A stretch of 61,671 bases of DNA, counting the filler, from Rhabdomonas costata (taxonomy: Eukaryota), in assembly GCA_019059605.1 (NCBI GenBank). It is 24 parts of 24 records of this genome, joined end to end, with 100 filler letters (N's around TTAATTAATTAA, not from the genome) between each part and the next. Parts side by side here need not be neighbours in the genome. Positions count along the whole stretch, not along the records: positions 36,054 to 38,528 come from JAHMHO010003251.1; 23 more parts are not named here. The stretch is one strand, 5' to 3'. Shown here piece after piece: positions 35,528 to 51,479 of the stretch (positions are counted from its first letter, which is position 1; each line of letters begins with the position of its first letter). Both the position numbers and the translations under genes were made by a program. Under the pieces are notes generated by a model. The model was not told the origin of the DNA. It ran no database searches and saw only the letters and a program-made list of their open reading frames with translations.

Positions 35528-36146
35528 GTGTGCGTGCTGCATGATTTGGTACCCTGTCGTAACGTGTAACGTGAAGGTCGTGAAGGATTTGCCGCACCGT
35601 TGCTAGCTGCTTCATTTTCTGTCGTCCACAAATCGGTGACAACAGTGCGGGGACAGTTGTAACCTCTGGCTGCAGTTCCCGAAGTCGTGACTCCCTTTGT
35701 TCTCCTTTGTCGTCGGGCCCTGGCGTTGCAGATTGCCGAAATTGTTTGTCAGTCATTAAAAGTCACCAGTGGGTGCCAGCTGTATATTGCCAGTGAGAGT
35801 TTCTGTACGAACGACTGCACACTCCACGGGCTCGGCGTGAATCACAGGGATGTGGCTTATTCGTGAAGAGTGCATTTTGGAACCACCATCGTGAAACGCC
35901 GTGTCTTTCGAACCATTCTTTGTCTGAGTCTGCTTTTGACGTTAGCGAGACTCNNNNNNNNNNNNNNNNNNNNNNNNNNNNNNNNNNNNNNNNNNNNTTA
36001 ATTAATTAANNNNNNNNNNNNNNNNNNNNNNNNNNNNNNNNNNNNNNNNNNNNGTGTGGTTTTGGATTTTTCTCCTATTACCACTCTCTCTCAGACGCAG
36101 TGAGGCAGGGAGAGGCTGCTGCGTGAGTTTTGGGGTTTTCTCGCAG

Positions 36147-38040
36147 GAGTGTGCACGGGATACCTTTCTGGCCTGCAGCCCGGCCAGACCGTCGCAGTGA
36201 AGGCTGAGAAGTCCGATCTTGTGCCCCCGAAGGACGAGGAGCTTCTGGTCGCCGTTGCCCTGGGGTCTGGAAACGTCACCTTCACGTTCACTCACTAACT
36301 CATTCTCGCCCTCCGCATCGATGTTCATCCATCATATCCACTTCTCAGGCTTGTCCCTGACCCTGACGAAATAACTAGCAATCCACTCGCATACTCATAG
36401 ATTGCTATTCCTGCGCAACACGCATGCGCTCTTTGCATTGGGCTTGCGTTGTTCAGCACGGGCATTTCGCCTGTTCGGGCGCTGCTGCACCGCCGACTTG
36501 CGCTGAAGGAGAGGGGCGGCAAGCCCGGCCACGTGCTGCTGTACTACGGCTTCCGGTCCAAGGCCACGGACTATCTGTACGCGGACGAGTTCCTGAAGTT
36601 CGGGCAGGCTGGGCTTGTGGAGGTGCACCCCGCGTGCAGCCACGAGGTTCCCGGGAAGTACGAGACCCCGCTGGACCTGATCGACGGCAAGCCGCGGGTA
36701 CTGCACGACATGCTACGCTCGGGGGCGTCGTTCTTCTATTGCGGGCTGGGCGGGGCCATCCCGAAGATGGTGGAGTCCACCGTGCAGCGCGCGCTGCACG
36801 CGTGCCGGGAAACCGCGATCAGCGTCAGGAAGCTTCGAGAGCAGGGTTGCTCTCTCCCTTTGTTTCTCCTTGCGGTCACAACAGAAGCTAGTTTGAAACC
36901 CACAGGTTGCAGACACGCACACCCACATACACACGATCACAGACATGGTCGTGTTTCCGCACAGGGGTGGGCAGATTCACCTCAGGTTTGAAATCGAAGC
37001 TTTCAGAACATCCGCCATTGCAATTATTATGTCTGCTCTGTCTGCTCTGCTGCGAATCCCAATTTTTTGCTTTATGGGGACGAATCTTGTCGTCGCTTCT
37101 GCGCAACCTTGCCTTGGCGCCGTTAAAATCTTCAGTTCCCATTCTGCGTTCCTGCACACCCACATTTTAGCAGCGGGCGACACTGGGGCCCTGTTTCTCA
37201 GTGATCCTTCTCCTTTGCCCTTGACCGGGGCGCTCTTTTCTTTTCTTCACGCACTGTCGTCCAATAGCCATCTTTGTGTCCCTTCAGGGAAGTACCTGGA
37301 GGAGTTCTTCAGCACGGATGTGGATGCAGAGAACCTCTTCCAGACCCTATATGGCAACAAGGAGGCCCCGATCGCCTCGAAGTACCAGGGAGCGGAGATG
37401 TTCTGCTTCCAGTGTGAGCAGGTCCCGCCACACAATTTGCTTGTCGGAAGAGGTCGATGTCACTTTAGAGACCAGTATGTTGGTTGGAAAAAAGTTAGGT
37501 GCATCACTTATTCATAGTCAGCTTGCTTTTTATGACAAGACTACTCCCTTGCCTCCACAGTAAAGTTTGAACAGTCTCGCAGGCATGGGTCGCCACCTTC
37601 TGATCTTTGGCAGGTTTCACATTGAAGTTCATGCTTCTTTGATTCTCTGAGCAGACAGTGGTTCTCTGCCTTCACGTTCTCCTTTCTCCCTTTACAGACC
37701 TATCACGGCACTGGCTGCGTCAAGGTGTGCATTTGTTTTTTTTAGTGATTTGTTTGCGATGCAGTGCACTTCTGCCAGGTTTGGTGAAATTGATATGGCT
37801 TTTTGAGCCTTCGTCTCTGTGGTTGGACAGAAGCGAAGGTTTGAGGTACAGCTCTGCCAGGGATTTCACCGATGCATTCAAATAGTTGTGCAAAGTTTTG
37901 GCGCTTTTTTTTTGCGTCACTTTCTTTGTACTCGCAGGTTGGGGTCTGTGGAAAGCAGCCCTCCACGGCGTGGATTCAGGACTTGCTGGTGCACCTGGTG
38001 AAGATCTGGGGGTGGTACAACCACCACGGGCAGAAGTTGG
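36147..38040 (+). CDS. hcp: Fusion protein: CPR/FNR-type FAD/NAD(P)H reductase domain + hybrid cluster (prismane) protein, partial
   Basis: Exons at 36147-36264, 36457-36845, 37288-37421, 37698-37724 and 37938-~38040 join in frame via GT-AG introns. They encode GVCTGYL, ALG/TGISPVR, LYYGFR...DYLYADE, FFYCG and LREQGKYLEEFFS, then a linker, then MFCFQCEQ/TYHGTGCVK/VGVCGK..STAWIQDLLVHLVK. Confidence 0.9.
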
Positions 38041-38649
38041 TGTGTGGGTGCTCTGTGTTGCCGTTTTGTGGGGCATTGCTTCCCCTGAGGATTTTGGGCA
38101 AGTTGCCTTTTTTTAAACCAATTCGTGGGCCATGTCTAGTGTCCTTCTCAAGGGAATTTTGGAAGACCTCTTTGTATACATTTTCTGACCCTGGATCCCC
38201 ACAATAATAAGAACTATTTCGGGGTGCAGTGGGGACAAGGCGTTGAAGCCGTTTTTTTCCCGTTACCACAGACACCTGAATCGCGGATGACGGAGTTTAC
38301 CCGAAAAGTTCCCATACTCCCCCATTTTCTCCCTCACTCTTTCATTTGATCCCTTTGTTGTGCTTGTTCTGGCGTCTCGGTTTTTGGCTTGCTGGCTCTT
38401 TCCTGCTTGCCTGGCCCTTGTTTGTACTTACATACCCATGTGTTTTTCCAAAATTAGGGAGTGCCCGAGAACCGCGCCGCAGACCGACAGCTCCTGTTCT
38501 GCCTCTTCGCCACCCCCCCCCCCAAAAANNNNNNNNNNNNNNNNNNNNNNNNNNNNNNNNNNNNNNNNNNNNTTAATTAATTAANNNNNNNNNNNNNNNN
38601 NNNNNNNNNNNNNNNNNNNNNNNNNNNNGTGGGGGGTGGTTCTCCAGGC

Positions 38650-48025: not shown

Positions 48026-48979
48026 CGTGAAGGAAAGGAGGATTCCCTTTTCACAATAAAAACCAGAAGAGCCCCGAAAACTTCTACGGAGAGAATGGAA
48101 ATGGGCCTGCGCATTGGAGTGTGGCGTTAAATCGTCGATTTCCGGCTCTGGCTCCGGCAAATGAAGAACCACAGGGGAACCTTTTAAGGCTCCAACAACT
48201 CCGAAGAACTTGAAGAAACGAAAGTCAAAATCCTCAAGCGCACTAAGCGCTCAGTGGAGGAAAGATGCGGATTTCCGATTACGATGTGACAAGGCAAAAA
48301 TCGAAACGAGAGTGGAAAAGGGAGATTTAAGGGCTTCGCAGAGATCCCACTCCGTTTTTTTAAGAGAGAGAAGGACAGGAATGGGTGGAGGTATGAGGTT
48401 ATGAGTTTAATTTGACTTCATTTTCAAATATGAATGTCGTCCAGTGGCGAGATGCTCGGAAAAAATGGGTTGATCCTTTAAGACTAACCCGGTGTTCCCG
48501 AATGTGCTCCTCTGGCTGTGAAGTCAAGCTGAAAAGCTGTGTTTGTGGGGATTGTGAGAAGCATCTGGTGCTGCGCAGACAGCCGACAAGACTGCCTGTG
48601 TTGCTGCCGCTTAAACAATGAGTGCCTCGAAGTCCCCATTTTTGCATGCATGGAGAAAGTCTTGTTTCAGTTTCTTCTTCTGATTAGCTTTTCCTTTTCT
48701 TTCGCACATCACAAGGAATATCACTATTGCTCTAGTCTTCCCAGGAACAAAACACGGCCTTATTGTGATGGATTTGAAATTTCTTCTCCCATGAGTTATC
48801 AGTCACCACCAACAANNNNNNNNNNNNNNNNNNNNNNNNNNNNNNNNNNNNNNNNNNNNTTAATTAATTAANNNNNNNNNNNNNNNNNNNNNNNNNNNNN
48901 NNNNNNNNNNNNNNNGGGTGTGGTGACGATGTGAAGATGAATCAGAATCTGATCTATTTCTAATTATTTTAATACAAAT

Positions 48980-49964
48980 ATGGCATTTGCCACATTTACT
49001 GCATTCTCATCGTAGACATGAACATACTTGTCGTAAATGCAGTAAATGTGGCAAATGCCATATTTGTATTAAAATAATTAGAAATAGATCAGATTCTGAT
49101 TCATCTTCACATCGTCATCATCATCATCATCATCACCATCATTGTTATGATCATGAAAATAATCATTATAATCATGAACATGATCAAGAACATGAACATG
49201 AACATAACAATGAATATGGACATACCTGTCAAATTATTAAAGTTGGAGGAGTTGGACCTCGTGGATTTCCTGGTTTAACTGGTGCTACTGGTCCTATTGG
49301 ACCTACAGGACCAACTGGTCCAGTAGGAGCAACTGGTGCTACCGGACCGACAGGAGCTGCAGGACCAACAGGTCCTGCAGGAGCGACAGGACCAGCTGGA
49401 GCTACCGGACCAGCAGGAGCTACCGGAGCAGCTGGACCAACTGGTCCTACTGGAGCCACAGGATTAACCGGAGCAGTTGGAGCCACTGGACCAACCGGAC
49501 CTGCTGGTGCTACAGGAGCGACAGGTGCAACTGGTCCTGCATTTTTAAATACATTTGGATATTTTTACAATACTGATAGTACAACAGGAACTGTTGTTAA
49601 TGCTGGTTCAAGTGTTACATTTGCATCAGTTGGTGCTCAAACTGCTGATATACTTATTGACAATGCCAAACAAAATATTACTTTAGATGTAGGTACATAC
49701 AACATAACATACAAACTGTTATTTACTGCTTCATCTGATCCTGTTGTTGTTGGTCTTTATAATGTTACCTCAAGTTCAGCAATTGCAAATTCTATAAATG
49801 GTGGATCTGGTCAAACTTCTATTGTTGGATCTTGTATTTTTGCTGCAACAGTTGTAACTCAAATTTCATTACGTAATTTATCATCCACTGTTTCATTAAC
49901 ATTAACACCGTCTGGTGCATCTGCATATGTAAATGCTATTCTTTCTATTGTTCGTGTTGCATAA
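48980..49964 (+). CDS. Collagen-like (GXT repeat) protein with His/Cys-rich N-terminus and BclA-like C-terminal domain
   Basis: About 30 G-X-T/G-P-X triplets are present, followed by a C-terminal beta-rich domain (FGYFYN...V.F...ITL..GTYNITY...ISLRN...AILSIVRVA). The ATG at 48980 is 1 nt out of frame with the ORF starting at 48987. Confidence 0.85.
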
Positions 49965-50403
49965 ATAAAATAAATTTTTTTATTATTTAAAATAAAATAA
50001 AATAAAATATTGTAAAATCTAATGTGTGTGTGTGTGTTTTCATATATTTTTCACTTATACTTCAGGATTAGTTTATGTTTCTGGTCTATGACATATATTA
50101 TCAGCATATTTTTTAACAGATGATTTTATTGCATTATTATCATTAGTAAATATATGAAAATTATAATCTTTTCTTGTACTATTTATTTAAAATTTTTTAC
50201 CCATATATAATATATATCATATGGTTAGAAAAATAAATAATACAACTTATGAAATTGACATATTATGTAATCTAATTTTAAAATATCGTAAACAATGTTA
50301 ACATGTTTATTTCTAAAAAAAAATAACGTTCACAAAACACTGTAATATAATATAAAAATAAAATGGTTTAAAGAAATCAATATATATACGTAGTACAAAA
50401 ACA

Positions 50404-51234
50404 ATGACATCAAAAAAAATCAGAAAAACAAGTCACGGAGGGTTTTGGGGTAAAACAACAATCACGCAGCACAATGAACAAAAAAGTGTCTGAAACAGAT
50501 AATTGTAAAAATGGTTCACAAAATTGTTCACAAAATTGTTCACAAAATAAAATGAAAGAAGATATTAAGAAACAAGTAGAACAGCAAACTAAGAAACAAG
50601 AAAAAAATAACAAAACAAAACATGAAGAACATGATTCGAAAATAGATTCACCTCAACCTCAGACAGATTCAGCTGATGAAGTAATCTCAAATATAACAAT
50701 TGATAATGAATCAACAACTGAAGCGAAATTCAATGTATCACTTAATGCATTAAAAATGAATTTAGCAAAGACAATAAAAGAACTACGAGATACAAAAAAA
50801 TAATATCAAGAAATTGGATACAATGTATAATCATGATGTACATCGTGCATCAAAGAACACTAAACAAGAAGAAGAAAATAAGAGATGTAAAACCAACAGG
50901 ATTTGGTAAATTAAGAACCGTGCCAGATAAATTAGCAAAACTAGTAGGAATTGAAATAGGTACAACAATGTCACGACCAGAATTTACAAAACAATTCTAT
51001 AAATTATTGGAGGCAAGAAATTTATATTATGACAAAGATAGAGTATTAAGAGTTGATAAAGAGATTAGTGAAGTATTAAGTATTCCAATGGAAGTGAATT
51101 CATCAACATATTTTAAAGATCCCAGCGGATTTAATTTTTATAATGTTCAAAAATATATTGCGAAATGTTATAACGTGGATACAAATAAGAAATCAGAACT
51201 AGATAAGAGTAATATTGTATTATCATACACATAA
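50404..51234 (+). pseudogene. SWIB/MDM2-domain protein, frameshifted
   Basis: KPTGFGKLRTVPDKLAKLVGIEIGTTMSRPEFTKQFYKLL..RNL....DR.LRVD...GFNFYNVQKYIAKCY is a SWIB domain of the type seen in NCLDVs. The N-terminal part is split across frames at about 50415, 50797 and 50855. Confidence 0.75.
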
Positions 51235-51235
51235 A

Positions 51236-51279
51236 AAGTTTACGGAATGATGTGAGTCATCACATCATTCCGTAAACTT
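51236..51279 (+). terminator. Perfect 20-bp stem / 4-nt loop palindrome just after the SWIB stop codon
   Basis: The sequence AAGTTTACGGAATGATGTGA-GTCA-TCACATCATTCCGTAAACTT begins immediately after TAA (51232-51234). Confidence 0.7.
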
Positions 51280-51479
51280 AAAATTTTATTTCGAATAATT
51301 ATTATACAAGAATGGTTCGAAATATATAAAGCAAAGCTGCGGACAAAGTAGTCCTCCGCAAAGTACGCCCCACAAAACANNNNNNNNNNNNNNNNNNNNN
51401 NNNNNNNNNNNNNNNNNNNNNNNTTAATTAATTAANNNNNNNNNNNNNNNNNNNNNNNNNNNNNNNNNNNNNNNNNNNN

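What the first reader, a model, noticed from the sequence alone, without database searches (positions are those of the whole stretch)
36147..38040. Self-sufficient 'reductase-hybrid cluster protein' fusion in a protist
Seen in sequence: a CPR/FNR-type NAD(P)H-binding module (GVCT.YL, GTGISP.R, LYYG.R..DYLY, YCG) ends at 'LREQGKYLEEFFS', which corresponds to the normal C-terminus 'GRY..DVWS' of diflavin reductases. The frame continues through a ~28-aa linker into MFCFQCEQTYHGTGCVKVGVCGK. The junction lies inside one exon (37288-37421), so it does not depend on my splicing model. Established knowledge: HCP is an NO/hydroxylamine reductase in the nitrosative-stress response. The C-X2-C-X8-C-X5-C spacing is class I (strict anaerobes and some protists). 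The dedicated FNR-like partner Hcr is a separate protein associated with class II HCP. Euglena also fuses CPR domains to an anaerobic enzyme (pyruvate:NADP+ oxidoreductase). Inference: this is a single-chain NADPH-to-flavin-to-[4Fe-4S]-to-hybrid-cluster enzyme, i.e. a self-contained NO-detoxifying or redox-balancing system. I do not know of a characterised example. The upstream domains (flavodoxin? PFO?) and the rest of HCP are off-contig.
Basis: partly seen in the sequence, partly recalled or inferred. Interest (0 to 1): 0.88.

Follow-up and report, generated by a model that had tools for sequence, protein, structure and literature searches.

The report
Reductase fused to hybrid cluster protein
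A euglenid gene really does join an NAD(P)H-using flavin reductase to a hybrid cluster protein in one chain, but the same fusion is already present, unstudied, in public sequences from many other eukaryotes.

Summary
Window 36054-38528 is one 2475-base contig. It carries six exons (five GT..AG introns) whose translation equals residues 76-350 of two public proteins of Rhabdomonas costata, 275 of 275 residues. Those proteins were most likely predicted from the transcriptome. [quoted passage not shown]

The fuller isoform (855 aa) carries a whole class I HCP with all cluster ligands.

The fusion is not unique. About 1200-aa proteins built as flavodoxin, FAD, NAD(P)H, linker, HCP occur in Chromera, a kinetoplastid, glaucophytes, oomycetes, ichthyosporeans and early fungi, plus many metagenome contigs. 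They form one clade. None of the 80 best prokaryotic loci is fused.

So the missing upstream part is most likely an FMN domain, not PFO.

Likely mechanism (inferred): NAD(P)H to FAD to FMN to [4Fe-4S] to hybrid cluster, reducing NO or hydroxylamine.

In print I found only a table footnote for Cyanophora, and no characterised member.

Verdict: new member of a recorded but unstudied family; moderate interest.

The parts
36054..38528 (.). One 2475-base genomic contig, bounded by artificial N/TTAATTAATTAA spacers. It holds the middle of the gene only.
   Evidence: piece list; tblastn of P0004/P0156 hits only this piece of the window
36147..36264 (+). Exon a. It encodes the end of the FAD-binding domain (GVCTGYL...) and the first strand of the NAD(P)H domain up to ...VAVALG. 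An AG acceptor precedes it.
   Evidence: residues 76-115 of P0156
36457..36845 (+). Exon b. It encodes the NAD(P)H-binding domain (GTGISP, LLYYGFRS..DYLY, ACSHE, FFYCGLGG).
   Evidence: alignment to the BM3 FAD/NADPH domain, E 7.9e-33
37288..37313 (+). C-terminal strand of the reductase (G)KYLEEFFS. F251 aligns with the FAD-stacking aromatic residue at the C-terminus of diflavin reductases.
   Evidence: query 250 aligns with residue 388 of the 391-residue BM3 chain; this column is F or Y in 45 of 45
37314..37397 (+). 28-residue linker TDVDAENLFQTLYGNKEAPIASKYQGAE in the same exon, with no stop. It contains the family-invariant Asp and Asn of a predicted helix.
   Evidence: D256 in 45 of 45, N259 in 44 of 45; helix 255-266, pLDDT 57-79
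37398..37421 (+). Start of the hybrid cluster protein, MFCFQCEQ, with the first two Cys of the [4Fe-4S] motif.
37698..37724 (+). Exon d, a 27-base micro-exon encoding TYHGTGCVK with the third Cys ligand.
37938..38039 (+). Exon e, encoding VGVCGKQPS... with the fourth Cys ligand and the first helix of the HCP N-terminal domain.
38458..38514 (+). Exon f (GVPENRAADRQLLFCLFAT), cut off by the contig end.
38515..38528 (.). C9A5 run at the contig end. It departs from the transcript-derived protein and is probably an assembly-end artefact. The start of an unconventional intron is not excluded.

Best explanation
This is a genuine nuclear gene fragment of the euglenid Rhabdomonas costata. It encodes the middle of a single polypeptide in which a diflavin-reductase module of the CPR/P450-BM3 type is fused, N-terminal to C-terminal, through a conserved linker of about 30 residues to a complete class I hybrid cluster protein.

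It belongs to a eukaryote-wide family of about 1200 residues, of single origin, built as flavodoxin(FMN)-FAD-NAD(P)H-linker-HCP.

The most likely mechanism is inferred, not shown. NAD(P)H gives a hydride to FAD. Single electrons pass from FAD to FMN. The mobile FMN domain reduces the N-terminal [4Fe-4S] cluster of the HCP. That cluster feeds the [4Fe-2S-2O] hybrid cluster, where NO is reduced to N2O or hydroxylamine to ammonia.

The fused reductase would thus play, for a class I HCP, the role that the separate Hcr protein plays for class II HCP in E. coli. The physiological use would be nitrosative-stress defence or disposal of reducing power in low oxygen in this facultative anaerobe.
For: Shown:
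- The exon model equals the transcript-derived protein, 275 of 275 residues, with five GT..AG introns and the junction inside one exon.
- The R. costata paper states that its proteins were predicted from the transcriptome and that no genes were called on the genome (PMC8219788, passages).
- Pfam on P0004 gives Prismane at 1.7e-127, FAD_binding_1 at 1.5e-14 and NAD_binding_1 at 23 bits against a cut-off of 22.
- The HCP part aligns end to end with solved HCPs: 7de4 at 6.9e-121 and 1e2u at 3.6e-115. An AlphaFold model (pLDDT 86, pTM 0.76) matches 1e2u with TM 0.93.
- All four cubane Cys and all seven hybrid-cluster ligand positions are kept in P0156. Each ligand column is kept in 43 to 45 of the 45 family members.
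- The reductase part is closest to the BM3 FAD/NADPH domain (7.9e-33), then CPR and NOS. R46 and Y48 are kept in 45 of 45 and S49 in 44 of 45. G116, R147 and G210 are kept in 45 of 45. The terminal aromatic residue is kept in 45 of 45.
- Family evidence. An exhaustive HMMER search listed 150 best hits. Seven of them are 1186-1235 aa with one aligned stretch running across the junction. Seven of the 8 tested have Flavodoxin_1 + FAD_binding_1 + Prismane. In a second search, 43 of 60 hits list all three domains.
- One origin. 49 fused tips fall in a clade of 52 (FastTree support 0.989). In an IQ-TREE run of 53 rows, 24 fused sequences plus 3 derived variants form one group (SH-aLRT 93).
- A natural variant, P0012, keeps only the FMN domain, linker and HCP. 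This fits FMN being the direct donor.

From the literature:
- Diflavin reductases pass electrons NAD(P)H to FAD to FMN to acceptor (PMC3509625, passage).
- The donor of class I HCP is unknown, and reduction by NAD(P)H would be exergonic (PMC10210160, section 4.3).
Against: - For R. costata itself, the FMN domain and roughly the first 140 profile positions of the FAD domain are not seen. They are absent from the contig, from the two public proteins (which start at an internal-looking Met) and from a search for shorter fragments (0 R. costata hits among 47). Residues 1-100 of the model have low confidence (pLDDT 48-75).
- No member of the family has been assayed, as far as ten literature searches show.
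- Nucleotide preference is open. The Arg of the Ser-Arg pair that binds the 2'-phosphate in BM3 and CPR (role recalled) is His in 37 of 45 members, including this one.
- The physiological reaction of HCP is itself debated (NO reductase, hydroxylamine reductase, peroxidase, trans-nitrosylase; PMC10210160).
An extra HCP-only transcript or cleavage in the linker is therefore not excluded.
- One of the two public isoforms (P0004) lacks 30 conserved HCP residues.
Confidence: 0.75

Rival explanations
1. The fusion is an artefact: a chimeric contig, a chimeric transcript assembly, or two neighbouring genes merged by a gene model.
For: The genome draft is very fragmented and came from amplified DNA (PMC8219788). 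The contig ends in a C9A5 run.
Against: The junction is inside one exon with no stop. Genome and transcript-derived protein agree, 275 of 275 residues. The same junction, with an invariant Asp and near-invariant Asn in the linker, is present in 45 aligned proteins from unrelated projects and organisms.
Confidence: 0.02
2. The gene is fused, but the cell mainly uses separate products. Either an internal spliced-leader acceptor or start site gives an HCP-only mRNA, or the linker is cut after translation.
For: Euglenids trans-splice their mRNAs (general knowledge). The HCP part starts with its own Met. Within the fused clade there are forms without the reductase (P0204, and P0011 which starts in the linker).
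Against: There is no stop codon between the modules. The linker is conserved in length (22-38 residues, median 31) and in sequence across lineages, including fungi and oomycetes that do not trans-splice. The public transcript-derived proteins read through.
Confidence: 0.08
3. The R. costata copy is a shortened form without an FMN domain, so the 855-aa protein is complete. Either the FAD/NAD(P)H module feeds the [4Fe-4S] cluster directly, or the module is decaying.
For: Both public proteins begin with Met at the same place, inside the FAD domain. No N-terminal fragment was found. Domain-loss variants exist in the clade (P0012, P0204).
Against: A FAD_binding_1 domain that starts at profile position 142 of 222 lacks most of its barrel and folds with low confidence. 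The FAD and NAD(P)H motifs that are present are intact. The nearest relative, P0186, is full length at 1185 aa. Transcriptome assemblies are often 5'-truncated (general knowledge).
Confidence: 0.1
4. The chain is fused, but the reductase does not simply feed HCP catalysis. The HCP part might act as an NO or redox sensor gating the reductase. The enzyme might be a general NAD(P)H sink or peroxidase. Or it might serve nitrogen assimilation (hydroxylamine to ammonia) rather than NO detoxification.
For: HCP function is unsettled. Other partners are also fused to HCP in eukaryotes: HD domain PF01966 in 4 of 60 hits and PF12576 in 2 of 60. The linker is conserved like a regulatory element.
Against: All catalytic ligands of the hybrid cluster are conserved. 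In every characterised diflavin fusion the reductase supplies the fused catalytic domain (PMC3509625).
Confidence: 0.1

Closest known systems
Orthologous fused proteins in public databases, e.g. Chromera velia Cvel_13627 (UniProt A0A0G4IEB6, 1197 aa), Achlya hypogyna OQR93068.1, Sphaeroforma arctica SARC_07729, Basidiobolus meristosporus 'hybrid cluster protein', Cyanophora paradoxa tig00000882_g5263
   Same: Same domain order, same junction and same conserved linker. They are 40-49% identical to the R. costata protein and lie in one clade.
   Different: They are full length, with the FMN domain. The R. costata sequence is known only from residue 142 (profile numbering) of the FAD domain onward. 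None is characterised. They are named 'hydroxylamine reductase' automatically, and the fusion is mentioned for Cyanophora only, in a table footnote (PMC8003979).
E. coli Hcp-Hcr (class II HCP plus its NADH oxidoreductase)
   Same: A pyridine-nucleotide-dependent flavoprotein dedicated to reducing an HCP. The overall logic is NAD(P)H to flavin to Fe-S to hybrid cluster (PMC10210160).
   Different: Hcr is a separate protein encoded next to hcp. It carries FAD plus a [2Fe-2S] cluster (per the title of van den Berg 2000, seen in a reference list). Here the reductase is fused and is a diflavin CPR/BM3-type module with no Fe-S domain. The HCP is class I and lacks the 4-residue class II insertion.
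Stand-alone class I HCPs (Desulfovibrio vulgaris 1E2U, Methanothermococcus thermolithotrophicus 8CNR)
   Same: Same fold (TM 0.90-0.93), same Cys spacing and same hybrid-cluster ligands.
   Different: Those are isolated genes whose electron donor is unknown (PMC10210160, section 4.3). This one carries its presumed donor in the same chain.
Self-sufficient diflavin fusions: P450 BM3, nitric oxide synthase, Euglena/Cryptosporidium pyruvate:NADP+ oxidoreductase, CysJ-fused [FeFe]-hydrogenases (the last two recalled, not tested here)
   Same: A CPR-like FMN/FAD/NADPH reductase is covalently joined to the catalytic domain it serves. The closest solved sequence match of the reductase part is BM3.
   Different: In those enzymes the catalytic domain is N-terminal and the reductase ends the chain (recalled; PDB coordinates for BM3 and NOS agree). 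Here the order is reversed. The chain continues past the FAD-stacking aromatic residue into a conserved linker and the HCP.
Assimilatory sulfite reductase flavoprotein CysJ with hemoprotein CysI
   Same: A diflavin reductase whose FMN domain reduces an Fe-S-containing catalytic partner. The review footnote calls the fused partner 'sulfite reductase'.
   Different: CysJ is only a distant match to the FAD/NAD(P)H part (1ddg, E 1.2e-06, against 6.4e-32 for BM3). No CysI-type domain is present.

Membership tests
Hybrid cluster protein (Pfam Prismane PF03063), class I | Full-length match to the Prismane/HCP family above the curated cut-off | tested here: met
   P0004: 426.7 bits against a cut-off of 27, profile positions 1-503 of 513. 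P0156 aligns with residues 1-550 of 7de4 and 1e2u. Only residues 281-350 are encoded in the window.
Hybrid cluster protein (Pfam Prismane PF03063), class I | N-terminal Cys motif C-X2-C-X8-C-X5-C without the 4-residue class II insertion | tested here: met
   Read directly from exons 37398-37421, 37698-37724 and 37938-38039. There are gaps of 3+1 residues against E. coli class II HCP. The class definition is from PMC10210160.
Hybrid cluster protein (Pfam Prismane PF03063), class I | Ligands of the hybrid cluster (His244, Glu268, Cys312, Cys406, Cys434, Cys459, Glu494 in D. vulgaris numbering; list recalled) | tested here: met
   All seven positions are identical in the alignment of P0156 to 1e2u. 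Each is kept in 43-45 of the 45 fused relatives. They lie off-contig, in the transcript-derived protein.
Hybrid cluster protein (Pfam Prismane PF03063), class I | Three-domain HCP fold including the full N-terminal helical domain (not class III) | tested here: met
   The AlphaFold model matches 1e2u with TM 0.93, rmsd 2.5 Å over 581 columns. Class III 7e0l aligns over only 422 columns.
Hybrid cluster protein (Pfam Prismane PF03063), class I | NO or hydroxylamine reductase activity | not testable with these tools
   Needs anaerobic expression and assay.
Diflavin reductase (CPR / P450 BM3 / NOS / CysJ type) | FNR-like FAD-binding domain (FAD_binding_1) with the R-x-Y-S motif | tested here: inconclusive
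   Only profile positions 142-222 of 222 are present in P0004 (54.6 bits). The motif RTYS is present and kept in 44-45 of 45 relatives. The N-terminal two thirds were not found for this organism. Relatives have the whole domain.
Diflavin reductase (CPR / P450 BM3 / NOS / CysJ type) | NAD(P)H-binding domain with the G-T-G motif, ending in an aromatic residue that stacks on FAD | tested here: met
   NAD_binding_1 scores 23.0 bits against a cut-off of 22 on P0004, and 20.5 on the exon alone. The alignment to the BM3 FAD/NADPH domain (E 7.9e-33) runs to 3 residues from the chain end. The aromatic column is F or Y in 45 of 45.
Diflavin reductase (CPR / P450 BM3 / NOS / CysJ type) | N-terminal flavodoxin-like FMN domain | tested here: inconclusive
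   Absent from the contig and from P0004 and P0156. None was found for R. costata in a search for shorter fragments. It is present in 7 of 8 close relatives tested and listed for 43 of 60 hits.
Hcr-type HCP reductase (E. coli) | Separate FNR-like protein with a [2Fe-2S] ferredoxin domain, encoded beside class II hcp | tested here: not met
   No ferredoxin-type domain appears in Pfam scans of P0004 or of 8 relatives. The reductase is fused, not separate, and the HCP is class I.
Pyruvate:NADP+ oxidoreductase (PFO + CPR fusion) | PFO domains N-terminal to the CPR module | tested here: not met
   All 7 full-length relatives scanned start with Flavodoxin_1 within their first 56 residues and have no PFO domains. 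The R. costata N-terminus itself is unseen.

The most novel reading that the evidence does not exclude
These proteins may be the natural answer to an open question in HCP biochemistry, namely what reduces class I HCP. In a broad set of eukaryotes the donor would be a built-in NAD(P)H diflavin reductase. That would make a self-sufficient NAD(P)H:NO (or hydroxylamine) oxidoreductase with a domain order reversed relative to BM3, NOS and PNO, and with a conserved post-FAD linker helix that may gate electron transfer. The fusion would have arisen once and then spread across eukaryotic supergroups. No member has been purified or assayed.
Probability: 0.5. Interest if true: 0.6.

Novelty: new member of a known kind. 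Interest (0 to 1): 0.45.

Why it matters
A 2023 structural paper on class I HCP states that the electron donor of class I HCPs is unknown and that genomic context gives no hint of a partner (PMC10210160, section 4.3).

A conserved natural fusion works like a Rosetta stone. It names a plausible donor type, an NAD(P)H-dependent FMN/FAD reductase. It also offers a single polypeptide that can be expressed and assayed without guessing partners.

The family also gives enzymologists a diflavin fusion with reversed domain order, in which the chain continues past the FAD-stacking residue.

For protist biology it adds an NAD(P)H-linked route for NO or hydroxylamine handling to the low-oxygen toolkit of a facultatively anaerobic euglenid, and of chromerids, oomycetes, chytrids, ichthyosporeans and glaucophytes.

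The value is tempered. The sequences, including this very protein, are already public, and nothing here is shown biochemically.

Tried and rejected
- Whole-genome search for the missing exons: no genome is held for this window.
I did not pursue it by other means.
- Search for an R. costata N-terminal (FMN/FAD) fragment, using the nearest full-length relative as query and shorter proteins as targets: 47 hits, none from R. costata.
- Prokaryotic origin of the fusion: in the scan of one genome per prokaryotic species, all 80 best loci match only the HCP half, query residues 555 onward.
- PFO as the upstream domain: rejected from the relatives' architecture.
- Rfam scan of the contig, both strands, E up to 0.01: nothing.
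- Earlier findings of this scan, by words, by sequence and by place: nothing relevant.
- Literature: ten searches found no description or assay of a reductase-HCP fusion apart from the Cyanophora footnote. 'hybrid cluster protein' with 'diflavin' returned 0 papers.
- Two likely sources are not held and were not seen: van Lis et al. 2020 (FEBS J) and Hagen 2022 (Coord Chem Rev). They may mention the fusion.
The supplementary tables of the R. costata paper and the sequence supplement of PMC8003979 may list this protein.
- I did not run a complex prediction of the FMN domain with HCP. Transient carrier-enzyme contacts are a poor case for it.
Full report
WHAT THE WINDOW IS

The 61,671-base window is not one locus. 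It is a chain of 24 pieces of about 2.47 kb each, separated by runs of N around the spacer TTAATTAATTAA. The finding lies in one such piece, 36054-38528 (53% G+C). Everything outside this 2.5-kb contig therefore had to come from public protein collections.

Reading the sequence gives six exons: 36147-36264, 36457-36845, 37288-37421, 37698-37724, 37938-38039 and 38458-38514. The five introns (192, 442, 276, 213 and 418 bases) all begin GT and end AG.

The joined reading frame has no stop. Its 275 residues are identical to residues 76-350 of two public proteins, P0004 (825 aa) and P0156 (855 aa). The cluster look-up names these as EukProt EP00906 Rhabdomonas costata, RCo052723 and RCo052726. R. 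costata is a euglenid.

The genome paper for this organism says three relevant things (PMC8219788, abstract and passages):
- The draft has 143,763 contigs with an N50 of 1194 bases.
- No gene prediction was done on the genome.
- The protein set was predicted from the transcriptome.

I infer that the RCo proteins are that set. It is also evidence that the mRNA reads through the junction. The paper's main text does not mention HCP (0 occurrences). Its supplements were closed.

In exon 37288-37421 the layout is as follows:
- The reductase ends with ...GKYLEEFFS, up to 37313.
- A 28-residue linker follows, 37314-37397.
- The HCP Met is at 37398-37400.

The four Cys of the C-X2-C-X8-C-X5-C motif lie on three exons. 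A sixth exon, 38458-38514, continues the HCP until the contig ends in a C9A5 run that departs from the transcript.

WHAT THE TWO HALVES ARE

Pfam on P0004 finds three domains:
- Prismane, residues 281-806, E 1.7e-127.
- FAD_binding_1, residues 6-80, covering only profile positions 142-222 of 222.
- NAD_binding_1, residues 111-163, 23 bits against a cut-off of 22.

Against solved structures, the HCP part aligns from its first residue to the end of E. coli HCP (7de4, 6.9e-121), D. vulgaris HCP (1e2u, 3.6e-115) and the methanogen class I HCP (8cnr, 7.6e-111).

Counting along the printed 1e2u alignment, I checked His244, Glu268, Cys312, Cys406, Cys434, Cys459 and Glu494. This is the ligand list as I recall it from the D. 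vulgaris structures. All seven are identical in P0156.

Relative to E. coli class II HCP, the cubane motif has gaps of 3+1 residues. This is the 4-residue difference that separates class I from class II (PMC10210160, introduction).

An AlphaFold2 model of P0156, built on 45 family sequences (mean pLDDT 86.1, pTM 0.76), superposes on 1e2u with TM 0.93 and rmsd 2.5 Å. It covers class III HCP over only 422 columns.

P0004 lacks 30 residues of the HCP that P0156 has, including a conserved G-x-G-H stretch. I take P0156 as the functional isoform.

The reductase part is closest to the FAD/NADPH domain of P450 BM3 (4dqk, 7.9e-33), then plant and animal CPR and NOS. E. coli CysJ (1ddg) matches at only 1.2e-06. 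The BM3 alignment runs to residue 388 of a 391-residue chain. The role of that residue is recalled, not tested.

IT IS A FAMILY, NOT A ONE-OFF

An exhaustive HMMER search of 1.84 billion representatives with P0004 gave 8321 hits at E of 0.001 or better. Among the 150 best, seven proteins of 1186-1235 aa (P0006-P0010, P0013, P0014) align in one stretch. The stretch starts in the reductase part (query residues 4-86) and runs on past query residue 659, across the junction. Four other long proteins (1117-1452 aa) match only with an N-terminal HCP and are different fusions.

Pfam on eight of the top hits shows Flavodoxin_1 + FAD_binding_1 + Prismane in all seven full-length ones. The eighth is a 782-aa fragment with FAD_binding_1 + NAD_binding_1 + Prismane.

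A second search with the Chromera protein gave 60 hits at E of 1e-50 or better. By listed Pfam domains they divide as follows:
- 43 list PF00258 + PF00667 + PF03063.
- 3 list PF00667 + PF03063 (among them P0004).
- 1 lists PF00258 + PF03063.
- 13 have Prismane without reductase domains.

Named members come from the following organisms:
- Chromera velia
- Papus ankaliazontas, a prokinetoplastid
- a EukProt transcriptome labelled Hpha
- Cyanophora paradoxa and Cyanoptyche gloeocystis
- Achlya hypogyna, Aphanomyces euteiches and A. astaci
- Sphaeroforma arctica and Creolimax fragrantissima
- Polychytrium aggregatum, Podochytrium sp. and Gonapodya sp.
- Siphonaria sp., whose record is flagged as unverified
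- Basidiobolus meristosporus and B. ranarum

Most carry the automatic name 'hydroxylamine reductase'.

THE JUNCTION IS CONSERVED

In an alignment of 45 fused proteins (A1), column counts are as follows.

Reductase part:
- FAD motif: R46 and Y48 in 45 of 45, S49 in 44 of 45.
- G116, R147 and G210: 45 of 45.
- C209: 40 of 45.
- E249: 44 of 45.
- Terminal aromatic residue: F in 32 and Y in 13 of 45.

HCP part:
- Met and the four cubane Cys: 44 of 45. The exception, Gonapodya, has a gap there.
- The seven hybrid-cluster positions: 43 to 45 of 45 each.

The linker is 22-38 residues long (median 31) and is not a featureless spacer. D256 is invariant (45 of 45), position 258 is E or D in all 45, and N259 is kept in 44 of 45. 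The model predicts a helix at 255-266.

ONE ORIGIN, IN EUKARYOTES AS FAR AS SEEN

I built a FastTree tree of 134 HCP domains. Before building it I dropped sequences with incomplete HCP coverage and six near-duplicates. All 49 fused tips fall in one clade of 52 with support 0.989.

An IQ-TREE quick run on 53 rows (LG+G4) places 24 fused sequences plus the same three odd ones in one group, with SH-aLRT 93 (not starred). R. costata is sister to a metagenome protein, P0186 (97). Both sit inside a 16-row subclade (99) that also holds Chromera, Hpha and Papus.

The three odd members look like derived forms:
- P0012 keeps the FMN domain, linker and HCP but has lost the FAD/NAD(P)H module.
- P0204 keeps an N-terminal leader, linker and HCP.
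- P0011 starts in the linker.

The nearest unfused relatives are eukaryotic: Alphamonas edax, then green algae such as Chlamydomonas leiostraca and Netrium.

In a scan of one genome per prokaryotic species, 590 of 600 pattern matches encode relatives. All 80 best loci match only query residues 555 onward, that is, the HCP half.

HOW IT MOST LIKELY WORKS

The following are shown: the domain content, the intact cofactor and ligand motifs, and the conserved covalent link.

The mechanism is inferred from established knowledge of diflavin reductases, where the electron flow is NAD(P)H to FAD to FMN to final acceptor (PMC3509625, section 1.1), and of HCP. The proposed steps are:
1. Hydride transfer from NAD(P)H to FAD.
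2. One-electron steps from FAD to FMN.
3. Swing of the FMN domain to the N-terminal [4Fe-4S] cluster of the HCP.
4. Electron transfer to the hybrid cluster.
5. Reduction of NO to N2O or of hydroxylamine to ammonia.

The FMN-plus-HCP variant P0012 fits FMN being the direct donor.

PMC10210160 (section 4.3) states that the donor of class I HCP is unknown. It also states that Hcr serves class II, and that reduction of class I HCP by NAD(P)H would be exergonic but would need an oxidase partner. This family supplies such a partner in cis.

Nucleotide preference is open. Where BM3 has Ser-Arg, this family has Ser-His in 37 of 45 members, including R. costata.

For R. costata itself the FMN domain and most of the FAD domain are unseen. 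The first 100 residues of the model are of low confidence. 'Self-sufficient' is therefore an inference from relatives.

COMPARISON WITH WHAT IS KNOWN, AND NOVELTY

Functionally, this is to class I HCP what Hcp-Hcr is to class II, but built with a different reductase family and as one chain.

Architecturally, it joins BM3, NOS and PNO as a diflavin fusion, but with the reductase first and the catalytic domain last.

It is not new as a sequence. The very protein is in EukProt, and orthologues have been in UniProt and NCBI for years.

Nine further HCP-directed searches found no description or assay. The passages I read in PMC1484493, PMC3916229, PMC6397501, PMC13632651 and PMC13198582 do not mention it. 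Two likely sources, van Lis et al. 2020 and Hagen 2022, are not held.

I therefore class the finding as a new member of a recorded but uncharacterised kind.

VERDICT

- Interest is moderate (0.45). The biology is coherent and bears on a stated open question about HCP electron donors, but the architecture is already public and nothing is yet shown at the bench.

Noticed in passing
window 48916-51379: This contig has 31.5% G+C, against 47-61% for the other 23 pieces. It encodes a His-rich protein with collagen-like G-x-T triplets (Pfam Collagen 2.9e-14; a weak BclA_C match below cut-off) and an ORF with a weak SWIB match below cut-off. It looks foreign to the euglenid nuclear contigs and may come from a virus, a bacterium or prey.
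   Followed up: partly
window 1-61671: The window is an artificial concatenation of 24 unrelated contigs of about 2.47 kb, apparently sorted by length. They are joined by N runs around TTAATTAATTAA, which gives a stop in all frames. Neighbouring pieces carry no linkage information.
   Followed up: yes
proteins P0208, P0209, P0211, P0216; P0210, P0215: Other HCP fusions exist. An HD domain (PF01966) is fused in front of Prismane in four proteins of 704-727 aa. PF12576 plus Prismane occurs in Scenedesmaceae green algae.
   Followed up: no
proteins P0088, P0109, P0154, P0108: These long proteins (1117-1452 aa) have the HCP at the N-terminus followed by 600-900 further residues of unexamined content. 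This is a different family of HCP fusions.
   Followed up: no
protein P0012 (756 aa; Logan/ENA contigs): This natural variant sits inside the fused clade. It keeps the flavodoxin (FMN) domain, the linker and the HCP but lacks the whole FAD/NAD(P)H module. It would need an external reductase for its FMN.
   Followed up: partly
proteins P0004 vs P0156 (off-contig part of the gene): The two public R. costata isoforms differ by a 30-residue segment of the HCP that includes a conserved G-x-G-H stretch. The difference is either an exon-skipping isoform or an assembly variant. The genomic region is not in the window.
   Followed up: partly
tree, subclade with P0013/P0188, P0191/P0198, P0190/P0195: Oomycete, chytrid and ichthyosporean fused HCPs group together with SH-aLRT 100. 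This does not follow organismal relationships and hints at transfer of the fused gene between eukaryotes.
   Followed up: no
window 38515-38528: The contig ends in C9A5 exactly where the transcript-derived protein continues with other residues. This is an assembly-end artefact or possibly the start of an unconventional euglenid intron.
   Followed up: no
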